A stretch of DNA of 64,000 nucleotides from Bradymonadales bacterium (GTDB lineage: Bacteria; Bdellovibrionota; UBA2394): contig REDG01000024.1 in the NCBI GenBank assembly GCA_007693605.1, positions 77,013 through 141,012 on the forward strand. The letters run 5' to 3'. A program made the position numbers. This document shows, one piece after another, positions 9,001-12,000 of the stretch (position 1 is its first letter; each line of letters opens with the position of its first letter).

Positions 9001-12000
9001 ATCTGCCGTGTTTACGGGGGCTTCGGTGTCTTGATCGGCTCGAGACTCAACATCTTGGTTCAGATCTTCGAGGAACTTGAGATGATCAATTTGGGCCGCC
9101 CTTCGCTGGGCCTTTCGGGTGTCATCTGCCACCCCCGACTCTGCCCGCGCTGAGTCAATCTTCCGACGAAGTTCTGCTATGAGGGGCTCAAAGATCCGGA
9201 TGGCATGAAGAACTTGCAGGTTTCGCATTCGAATCCTCTCGTCATCAGGCCTTGTCACATATTCAAAAACAAAGTCAGCCGTTGTATCGATCGAATCAGA
9301 AATCAAACCCAGGTCTCGGAAAACAGAACTCGCATCTCTGAGCCTTAGAAATCGCAAGCGCTCCGACTCAAGGTCTACCTGAAAGACGCTAGTCTGATTA
9401 AATCGGTTAATGGCAAACTCTTCGATGGCCCCATTAGAACCCACCACAAGCTCGACACTATAGGCGCCATCTCCGTCGCCCGATTGTTGCCGCCGCAAAG
9501 AATCGATATCCACTTCAGTGAAGAGCCGGAAAACCAAACGACGATCCCGTGAGCTGAAGAATTCGGCCCGGCTCTGAAGGGGCTCCGACAGTTGAAAGTC
9601 CGACCTGGAAGACCCGGTCTCCGCCACCAGAGGCGTGCTCCCAAAGCCCACCAAGAAACCACCAAGAATCAGTGTCATCACTCGAAACATTTCTAAAATT
9701 CCTCTCAGGCCAAAATAGAGCAAGAGTCGTACCAGAATCCCACGAGAGGCCCTCCAAAAAAAGCTGTGATTTCAATGATTTATCCAATGCACGAAGTCAA
9801 AAACCACAGCCCCCCTCGAAGTCTGCAGTTTTTAGGGACTCGATCGAACTTTTTTCCGCCGGGGTCGGGAGACGGAAGTGCCAGACTAGTGGTCCAACCG
9901 GTAAATTGTTTAATTTTCTCAACTGCCACTCCCTCATTCCTCCCCAAAAAATCAAAAGAAGTTTTTAGGGGACTTATTTTTACTTTCTGGGGGACGGGCC
10001 CACCTATTGCATTGAGGCCTGAAACTGATTACCGCAGCGGAAGTGATTTTTTTGACAAATGAGATGTCGGTGCGGCTGTATTTCATAGAAAACAAAATGA
10101 GTTTTTAAGGGACTCATTTTGTTTTTTAGGCGGAGGTGAAACTGTTTGAACTGTAAAAAAATATCTGTGCAACCGACATCTTGGGCAAAATTTTTGTTGA
10201 CAGGATTTTCTGAGCACTTTTTTTGATCTCGCAAATCAATTCAGAATACTAACTTTAATGGCTCTGTCTTTCGTCCTGAAAGCTCAGCCTTAGTCTGGAA
10301 TGAAAAAATTTAAATGCATGGCAATGCGTCTTATAGAGCGAACATACTCCAGTCAAGAAAGTCCATGTTATGCTCAAGCCTATGAAAAGCATGAACTGCC
10401 AAGACAACCCCAATCAGATACTGACCGTGCCAGAGACATCCAATCTTCAGAAACTCCACTCCGACGACCTTCTTTCTTATACTCAAAAGCTCGCAGCCTC
10501 TGAGAGAAAAATCTATGCTGCCGTGATCGAGGCCCTTGAAGAAATCGAAAGGCGAAAGCTCTATCTCGCCAAGGGCTACTCTTCTCTTTTTCTGTTTTGC
10601 ACCGAAGTCTTGAAGTATTCCGCCGGAGCGGCACAGAGAAGAATCGAGAGCATGCGGCTGATTAAGAATTTCCCAAGGGCTCAGAAGACAGAGGTGAAAT
10701 CGAAGCTCCAAAAGGGAAGTCTTTCTCTTTCTCACTTAAGCCAAGTCTCTAAGGCCCTTCGGTCTCTCCCGCCCCAGAGCTGTCATGAAAAAATGCAGTT
10801 GCTGTCTCGCGTAGAAAACACCACCCAAAGGGACTGCCCCCAAACTCTCGATTTGGGAGTGGTGATGAAGGTCCAGATGCGAGAAGGCAAGGAGCGAGCA
10901 TCGCAGTGTGGTTATGATGCCACTCGAGAAGCGCAGCGACGCAGCCGACAAAGCAGATGGACCTTTAGCGACACTCCCATGAAGAGACTAAGGAGCTTCT
11001 AGAGAAATTCATGGGCCTAACGGCTCATCAGAACCCTTGGGCGAGTCGAGAGAAGGCCCTGAAGATTGCCCTGAAGTTAGCTCTTCAAGAAGTGGAGAAG
11101 AGGAAGCTGGGCGTGAGGGGGAAGAAGAAGGGGGCTAAGTCTAGAAATACGACAAAAGATGGGTCTCAAGCAGGGCCCGAGGGAAGGGCTTTGAGAGAAG
11201 CCGAGAGTTTACCGGGGGCAGATGCCGCAGTGGAAGTAAAAGCGAAGCCTTTGGGAGCGGAAGAGACTGGGGGCGTTGAATTTCAAGATCGGGAAAGACA
11301 TCGCAAAAGAAGGGCTACTTTGATGGAAGTTGCTACCGCTACGGAAGCTGTTTCTCCCGAGGAAAGGAAAGAAGTAAAGATTCAGCCCAAAAACAACCGA
11401 AGTCGGCACATTCCAACGGCTGTTCGAGCTGAGGTGTGGGAGAGGGATGGCGGGGCTTGTGTTTTTGTGGAGCCGGGATCGGGTAGGTCGTGTGGTTCGA
11501 CTTTTGGGCTGGAGTGGGATCATATTTTGGAGTTTTCGAGAGGGGGAGAGTCAAGCGAGGCGAATCTTCGGCTGCTTTGTCGGCAGCACAATAATGGGCG
11601 ACAACGATGGGAGAGACAAATCTGAATGCGCTGAATGAATTTTTCGTTCGTTCGGCAGAAGAAGCTTCTCAACATGAGGGCTTTTACCTCAGTGGATTCT
11701 TCTGACACCTATCTGGGCTAAACTATTTCAACAAGTGAGAACCAGAGAAACAAGACGGGAATGCCCGCCACTCTGTAGTAGAACTTTCCAATGAGAGTTC
11801 CGTCCGGCGTTCTCCTTATCTCGTCTAAATAGGGTCTCTGTAAAACAGGAAGATTGGCCGGTACCGAATAATCTACGACCAGGCTGGCTCTATCGGAATC
11901 TTCATACATCTGAAAAGGCAGAATCTCGCCCCGTGCGGGCCAGTAGTTGATTCCTGAGTGAGAATCCGAATCAAATCGCATCTCAAAGAAGCGATTCCGT

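What a model noticed while it worked through the whole genome (the two positions that open the first line are those of the whole stretch)
10828..10978. Stop-codon-anchored mosaic repeat family
A species-specific repeat with a fixed 26-nt head and shuffled hairpin modules occurs about 90-130 times, and about half of the heads begin within a few bases of a same-strand stop codon; at C42 one copy has replaced about 90 nt inside an HNH gene with short matches at both joints and no target duplication. The repeat likely spreads by microhomology-guided patch replacement aimed at, or selected for, gene ends, putting a strong hairpin right behind the terminating ribosome of over 40 mRNAs. An oriented, stop-codon-targeted repeat spreading by replacement would be a new mode of repeat spread and a genome-wide handle on termination or mRNA stability.
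Evidence so far: 128 hits for the core motif; 88 for the 26-mer, 0 in 13 family genomes, 0 for the reversed control. Of 87 heads, 42 start -2 to +14 nt from a same-strand stop and none within 19 nt of an opposite-strand gene end; 43 genes listed, TAA/TAG/TGA used equally, chance share of such positions about 1.9%. About 50 different module orders at 196 loci. Replacement seen by aligning the C42 HNH copy with three intact paralogs.
(Added by a program. Inside this text positions count along the whole contig: contig position 77,013 is position 1 of the stretch shown here. "Call 12" and the like, gene names such as g00115 and contig names such as C1 are that model's own, and its searches are not shown. 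The text may have been shortened before it was handed on; [...] marks where a part breaks off. The agent that wrote the report below was given it as the finding of a first reader that could run no searches.)

Follow-up and report, generated by a model that had tools for sequence, protein, structure and literature searches.

The report
Hairpin mini-transposons landing on stop codons
This repeat is a gene-less 150-base hairpin element that sits with one particular end on the stop codons of dozens of genes here and in many related bacteria; it often duplicates five target bases, so it likely spreads as a miniature transposon moved by a borrowed IS1182-type enzyme rather than by patch replacement, and why it favours gene ends so strongly is only partly explained.

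Summary
In detail: 44 of 96 heads start -2 to +14 nt from a same-strand stop, against 5.4% of non-coding positions, and the window copy replaced 105 nt of an HNH gene without duplication. The interpretation mostly fails. The head is one terminal inverted repeat of a 149-nt unit. Nine of 35 two-ended clusters carry exact 5-7-bp target duplications (control 0.25% per pair), five with the stop codon inside the duplication. The ends match those of IS1182/IS5-like transposase elements in related genomes, 12-14 of 17 nt. The core is not species-specific: 48 of 151 phylum genomes have it, with the same end on stops (23 of 77). Its conserved fold lies on the strand opposite the mRNA. A weak target motif explains about 2-fold of the bias; 7-9-fold remains. 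Replacing insertion is known for IS1182-family IS1272. No cognate transposase was found in this assembly, and there are no RNA data. The scan noted this family before on other DNA (e1-8485041). Verdict: an uncatalogued MITE variant with an unexplained gene-end preference.

The parts
10830..10978 (-). Complete 149-nt unit (A head, two inner modules, B arm, C end), read A-first on the minus strand; stands in place of 105 nt of the HNH gene, no target duplication
10953..10978 (-).
10855..10880 (+). B arm: imperfect inverted partner of A, closes the hairpin; internal in complete units
10830..10854 (+). C end: 25-nt extension that repeats the terminal 15 nt; the true second terminus, where target duplications abut at other loci
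10855..10978 (+). 124-nt hairpin core with covarying stems and conserved purine-rich internal loops; conserved fold is on this (B-first) strand
10370..11002 (+). 5' half of the broken DUF222-like/HNH gene, reading on through the element to an out-of-frame stop
11011..11625 (+). 3' half of the broken gene with the HNH domain
9861..9907 (+). R (RAYT-linked REP) joined to a D end: two other repeat families that fuse with the A unit elsewhere
19802..19862 (.). Short two-ended D-family element whose left end overlaps the stop codon of the gene at 19048-19803

Best explanation
The repeat is a non-coding 149-nt element with inverted ends, a conserved hairpin core and frequent 5-bp target duplications, sitting A-end-first on native stop codons, and it is likely a miniature transposon (MITE) cut and pasted in trans by an IS1182/IS5-like DDE transposase. 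Shown: inverted ends, duplications, a weak target motif (T at position 2, A at position 4 of the 5 bp) that TAA and TGA fit, insertion points from about 15 nt before to 8 nt behind native stops, matching ends on transposase-bearing elements in other genomes, antisense fold. Inferred: the transposase makes a staggered cut at or beside the stop, so the gene stays whole and the old intergenic DNA is pushed behind the element; in-frame hits just before the stop are rescued by a TAA in the head. The motif gives about 2-fold of the bias; the remaining 7-9-fold most likely comes from selection (copies within the footprint of the terminating ribosome are kept, others in 3' UTRs and promoters are purged), with true sensing of gene ends not excluded. 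Later deletions erode the C side, other repeats nest inside, and arrays form, giving the mosaic. The window copy is a minority outcome: an IS1272-like replacing insertion or an insertion followed by deletion between look-alike ends.
For: Duplications: 8 of 5 bp and 1 of 7 bp among 35 two-ended clusters (47 end pairs), swapped-flank control 0.25% per pair, 5 of 9 contain the stop (binomial p 1e-4 against 6.5%). In other genomes repeats of 6 bp or more in 15 of 78 copies vs 5.4 expected, five of them at the C end in G131. Ends: the G000 C end matches the left end of an IS1182-like element in G241 at 14 of 17 nt and one in G041 at 12 of 17; the G041 repeat end matches four such elements at 13-14 of 17, one in same-family G010; their proteins score best with NCBIfam IS1182 or IS5 models. 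IS1272 (IS1182 family) also forms a tandem duplication of its 25-bp end, inserts just downstream of genes and can replace its target (PMC5678879). Native stops: guaA ends as in 12 orthologues; all 6 tested genes whose stop the head supplies end within about 5 codons of their orthologues. Density of A ends per 1,000 candidate positions: 5.8 at 0-8 nt behind a stop, 0.18 at 9-50, 0.11 at 51-400, 0.26-0.40 facing starts, about 1.1 in gene tails. Anchoring is as high in perfect heads (23 of 37) as in diverged ones (9 of 19).
Against: No IS1182, IS4/IS5 or Tn3 transposase was found in G000, which is 90% complete; the protein query hit only 11 of 401 phylum genomes while the repeat is in about a third. 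Most IS1182 scores are under the curated cut-off (partial proteins). None of the 7 autonomous elements with a recognisable end lay within 16 nt of a long-ORF stop (short flanks). Outer stems vary between copies while staying complementary (37 of 39 pairs with two-sided change), unlike fixed transposase binding sites, and the conserved internal loops have no role in a plain MITE model. About half of the complete units and nearly all truncated copies lack a duplication (8 of 81 by a far-end test). Duplication lengths vary (5-10 bp). No filled/empty allele pair from a close strain was found. The selection step is untested.
Confidence: 0.6

Rival explanations
1. The inserting machinery itself senses gene ends: a transposase or helper reads the folded antisense strand and is delivered to DNA at translation-termination sites (for example through an R-loop or paused complex after ribosome release), inserting in a fixed orientation.
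For: Observed 31 of 98 A ends at 0-3 nt vs 3.3-4.7% expected with the target motif; density inside gene tails (about 1.1 per 1,000) is 6-fold above 3' UTR positions 9-50 (0.18); non-anchored heads show no excess of stop-like triplets (11 of 51 vs 20%); same polarity in other genomes, A 23 of 77 vs B 5 of 73.
Against: All copies have passed selection; ribosome-dependent selection predicts the same window; autonomous elements with these ends were not at stops (0 of 7); two other repeat families here (D 13 of 30, R 7 of 43) also abut stops, which points to a shared filter.
Confidence: 0.2
2. One reading: copies spread by microhomology-guided patch replacement without a transposase cut, aimed at gene ends.
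For: The window copy replaced 105 nt with end-like sequence at both joints (9 of 15 is reached by 0.7% of positions); at prmC and at G041 L126 the direct repeat resembles element sequence; many copies lack duplications.
Against: Exact 5-bp duplications that include the stop cannot arise by replacement; prmC lost nothing; one event only, chosen after the fact, and equally explained by insertion plus deletion or by IS1272-type replacement.
Confidence: 0.07
3. The RAYT on C78 (a single-strand HUH nuclease) moves the mosaic by cutting at CT and joining strands, as proposed for REP/BIME.
For: RAYT is present and intact, flanked by inverted R repeats; R is fused to A units at about ten loci; C precedes the stop in 25 of 37 anchored heads vs 30% (p 3e-6), and TnpA-REP cuts at CT (PMC8266576).
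Against: HUH enzymes are not known to make 5-bp duplications (own knowledge); the C bias also fits the target motif; three genomes rich in the repeat (G041, G082, G094; 61-92% complete) gave no Y1 match; no core copy lies beside the RAYT loci.
Confidence: 0.06
4. Random insertion followed by a ratchet of one-sided deletions that draws the A end up to the stop codon.
For: Precise A end with no consensus beyond it, depletion at 9-50 nt, floor of 20 nt before starts.
Against: Five of nine copies with an intact duplication already contain the stop; young heads are not less anchored than old ones.
Confidence: 0.04

Closest known systems
ERIC/IRU/RU-1 (127-bp enterobacterial MITE; PMC2229807 parts 1-2, PMC3184786 and PMC10969869 passages)
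   Same: About 125-nt single long hairpin, many copies at gene 3' ends, orientation matters for mRNA fate in Yersinia
   Different: ERIC has TA ends and a TA duplication; this element has IS1182-like ends, a 25-nt duplicated terminus and 5-bp (up to 10) duplications; no blastn match in E. coli genomes; sequence kinship to ERIC not tested here
IS1272 / IS1182 family (PMC5678879 abstract, sections 21, 29 and passages; PMC4923244 passages)
   Same: Similar short inverted ends, tandem duplication of a 25-bp end, insertion just downstream of genes, replacement of target without duplication
   Different: IS1272 is autonomous and targets hairpins (terminators), deleting 21-85 bp; this element is gene-less, mostly duplicates 5 bp, and terminator-like hairpins are rare here (14 of 632 genes)
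REP/BIME with RAYT (PMC8266576, PMC3733652, PMC12306157 passages)
   Same: Mosaic arrays behind stop codons, termini that supply stops, REPs within 15 nt of a stop stall ribosomes; the R family here is of this kind
   Different: A unit is five times longer, has no GTAG foot and has target duplications
YPAL/RU-2, Chunjie, QMITE2 (reviews above)
   Same: GC-rich or long hairpin MITEs with direct repeats of 3-26, 9 and 7-9 bp, 3'-UTR location, truncated copies
   Different: No oriented pile-up on the stop codon was described in the passages read; sequences not compared

Membership tests
Bacterial MITE | Short, non-coding, multi-copy | tested here: met
   149 nt, 86 heads at up to 2 mismatches
Bacterial MITE | Terminal inverted repeats | tested here: met
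   A and C ends share about 15 nt; A-B stem folds, z -4.8
Bacterial MITE | Target-site duplication | tested here: met
   9 of 35 two-ended clusters vs 0.25% per control pair; absent in the window copy
Bacterial MITE | Ends shared with an autonomous IS | tested here: met
   12-14 of 17 nt with IS1182/IS5-like elements in G241, G041, G010, G195, G285, G276; none in G000
Bacterial MITE | Mobilisation in trans by that transposase | not testable with these tools
   needs a transposition assay
ERIC/IRU | TA at both termini with TA duplication | tested here: not met
   duplications are 5 bp or more and varied
ERIC/IRU | Sequence or fold homology to the 127-bp consensus | tested here: inconclusive
   no blastn match in E. 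coli genomes with a G041 copy; model R1 was not run on ERIC copies
REP/REPIN (RAYT) | 20-40-nt palindrome with tetranucleotide foot, copies flanking the RAYT gene | tested here: not met
   RAYT is flanked by R, not by A/C units
IS1272-type hairpin-replacing insertion | Target is an inverted repeat of 21-85 bp that is deleted, no duplication | tested here: inconclusive
   window copy deleted 105 nt that folds weakly (-9 to -13 kcal/mol as DNA); family mostly duplicates
Rfam 15 families | Match to a covariance model | tested here: not met
   one chance hit at E 0.6 outside the repeat; none in 8 homologous loci

The most novel reading that the evidence does not exclude
A phylum-wide family of structured mini-transposons whose inserting machinery finds translation-termination sites on the chromosome and inserts in fixed polarity within about -15 to +8 nt of the stop, using a conserved antisense-strand fold; this would be a translation-guided safe-harbour targeting mode for DDE elements.
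Probability: 0.22. Interest if true: 0.82.

Novelty: new variant of a known kind. Interest (0 to 1): 0.5.

Why it matters
MITEs and REPs near gene ends are old news, but the enzymes for ERIC-like hairpins are unassigned and their position is usually put down to tolerance. Here the ends name a candidate transposase class, and the landing profile is sharp enough to test: 30-fold higher within 8 nt of a stop than at 9-50 nt, and elevated even inside gene tails. One unselected transposition experiment would separate gene-end sensing from ribosome-dependent selection. Sensing would be a new targeting rule and a possible safe-harbour tool; selection would give a genome-wide measure of how a terminating ribosome masks a 3' hairpin.

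Tried and rejected
Cognate transposase in G000: no match for PF01609, PF05598, PF13751, PF01526, NF033551 or the G041 protein; IS3 ends differ; inverted end pairs around long ORFs were chance; the IS5 in G131 has other ends. Empty alleles: exact-head scan of metagenome contigs found 0; the one DNA run holding the window may be its source and showed none. RNA: no RNA holder listed; two RNA runs laid 7 and 0 reads on 19.5 kb and 0 on the window, no test. An exact core pattern in GTDB contigs gave 33 loci, of which 3 were real homologues by eye. Plasmid and E. coli blastn gave nothing or only short end matches. LINE-like truncation rejected: truncated copies lack duplications. Terminator replacement rejected as main route (crude scan). 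Trimming ratchet rejected. L051 had no orthologue in 5 genomes, so 6 of 10 stop-supplying cases were tested. A scan of viral contigs for elements with the same ends was left out, so such elements there are unexamined. The ERIC study in Yersinia (De Gregorio 2005) was not held; it is cited through reviews only. One search was an empty self-alignment.

Full report
Setting. The window is G000:C42:77013-141012 of a 2.19-Mb, 79-contig, 90% complete assembly. A same-family genome carries the record label Bacteriovoracaceae (L035 is the same locus as G001). No gene caller was installed, so I trained a hexamer caller: 1,890 genes, 87% coding. All distances to stops in G000 rest on it.

The observation. 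The head has 86 copies at up to 2 mismatches, reversed control 0. Of 96 heads at up to 3 mismatches, 44 start -2..+14 nt from a same-strand stop and 7 more supply the stop; such positions are 5.4% of non-coding positions. Counting only outward-facing ends at up to 4 mismatches, 37 of 98 lie at -3..+3 against 1.5-2% for uniform insertion in repeat-free gaps. The window copy, 10830-10978, stands where five intact paralogs of a DUF222-like/HNH gene have 105 nt, with no duplication. Orientation is real on another test: A end 37 of 98, C end 5 of 33 (p 0.018).

Anatomy. The head (A) pairs with an inner arm (B) into one long hairpin (z -4.8). Outside B lies a 25-nt extension (C) that repeats the terminal 15 nt. 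A and C are the true ends. Among 35 clusters with two facing ends (47 end pairs), 8 have an exact 5-bp direct repeat and 1 a 7-bp one; swapped flanks give 0.25% per pair; all 9 end in a C-type terminus and no A-B pair has one. By eye about 16 clusters are complete units, so roughly half lack a duplication, the window copy among them. In 5 of the 9 the upstream stop codon is inside the duplicated bases. At prmC the element sits 15 nt before the native end behind an 8-bp repeat, and the native four codons and stop remain beyond it, matching 11 orthologues. Most loci are cut short on the C side without a duplication (8 of 81 by a far-end test). The mosaic (81 orders at 221 loci) comes from tandem arrays, truncation, inserted hairpins and fusion with other families: D, a two-ended element with CTAG at its ends that nests inside the A unit and shares TAG with a stop in 13 of 30 outward ends, and R, the REP that flanks the RAYT gene.

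Range. A covariance model of the core from 7 copies hits 48 of 151 phylum genomes, 9 of 13 in the family. I fetched 87 of the 244 matches from other genomes, the best listed; 9 were dropped because the inner anchor was not found. With a crude test (open frame of 300 nt or more), 23 of 77 A ends lie at -3..+3 of a stop, 12 more supply it, 1 lies at 9-20; B ends 5 of 73, with a cluster at 19-33 nt, behind the C extension. Direct repeats of 6 bp or more occur in 15 of 78 vs 5.4 expected. Across 56 copies 37 of 39 pairs change on both sides (alignment fitted to the model). G-U cells outnumber A-C cells 115 to 16 on the B-first strand, which folds more stably in 16 of 16 G000 copies and 85 of 87 others (the model was built on that strand). 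With A at the stop, that strand is antisense to the gene. Rfam 15 has no match.

Enzyme. A DUF772 transposase in G041 has ends matching the repeat ends of that genome at 14 of 17 nt. Its relatives (11 of 401 genomes) include elements whose ends match the G000 C end at 14 of 17 (G241) and the G041 end at 13-14 of 17 (G010, G195, G285, G276). They score best with IS1182 or IS5 models, mostly under the cut-off. None was found in G000. IS1272 of the IS1182 family forms a 25-bp tandem end duplication, lands just downstream of genes and replaces hairpin targets without duplication (PMC5678879: abstract, sections 21 and 29, passages; PMC4923244: passages). So the odd window copy has a published precedent.

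Why stops. Non-anchored ends show a symmetric 5-bp preference, T at 2 and A at 4, which predicts the peak at 0-1 nt but only 3.3-4.7% of copies at 0-3, against 31 of 98. Non-anchored heads have no excess of stop-like triplets (11 of 51 vs 20%), so real gene ends matter. Stops are native: guaA, and 6 of 6 tested cases where the head supplies the stop end within about 5 codons of orthologues (10 cases in all). Per 1,000 candidate positions there are 5.8 A ends at 0-8 nt, 0.18 at 9-50, 0.26-0.40 facing starts and about 1.1 in gene tails, the last assuming a 15-nt window. Trimming fails because duplications are intact and young heads are as anchored as old. Two readings remain: selection tied to the terminating ribosome, whose footprint is about this long (own knowledge) and which governs ERIC and REP effects on mRNA (PMC2229807 parts 1-2; PMC12306157 passages), or machinery that senses gene ends. 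That D and R also abut stops, and that 0 of 7 autonomous elements do, tips me to selection; the excess inside gene tails keeps sensing open.

Against my reading: no enzyme in this genome, variable outer stems, an unexplained conserved antisense fold, many copies without duplication, no empty alleles, no RNA test.

Literature. Searches (open-licence papers only) showed no description of this family or of oriented insertion centred on stop codons; I saw listings for most, and passages of PMC3733652, PMC8266576, PMC10969869, PMC3184786, PMC12306157. The primary ERIC papers and ISfinder were not available; no supplements were read, and those of the IS1272 papers may list more target types. Earlier scan notes reached similar readings on other DNA; they are not independent support. 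I had seen duplications and IS1182-like ends; the antisense test was prompted by them.

Verdict: real feature, MITE of a known kind in an uncatalogued variant; replacement is not its general route; the sharp oriented gene-end profile is the part worth an experiment. Interest 0.5.

Noticed in passing
window 9861-9907, 19802-19862 and about 45 ends genome-wide: D family: separate two-ended repeat with CTAG at its ends; 13 of 30 outward ends use the gene's TAG/TAA as part of the end; nests inside the A unit. Looks like a CTAG/TA-targeting MITE; cognate enzyme not searched.
   Followed up: partly
L001 1334-2146 (G000:C78): Intact RAYT flanked by inverted R repeats; 45 R copies, 5 inverted doublets, 7 of 43 outward ends at -3..+3 of a stop, and three genes end in the same R-encoded peptide.
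   Followed up: partly
window 10100-11625; C3, C9, C28, C33, C44, C50, C61, C70, C72: At least 11 paralogs of a DUF222-like/HNH gene, 80-85% identical in DNA, several preceded by the same AT-rich hairpin; may be a mobile unit of its own.
   Followed up: no
L045 1250-2577 (G000:C71) and many contig ends: IS3-family element whose ends break the assembly at ten or more contig ends; ends unlike the repeat's.
   Followed up: partly
L112, L117, L120, L004: Homologues of the core directly beside tRNA genes in G009, G013, G024 and G007.
   Followed up: no
G000 C5, C18, C61, C70: tRNA-linked repeat arrays (copies of tRNA ends with a hairpin module), noted by earlier scan reports.
   Followed up: no
window 12418-16230 (-): 1,270-aa superfamily-2 helicase (ResIII/DEAD/Helicase_C) with a long unannotated C-terminal half.
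   Followed up: no
G000 C3 9302, C44 24050, C77 27865, C32 18231: Single copies carry the same change in both arms of the terminal stem, suggesting arm-to-arm correction after insertion.
   Followed up: partly
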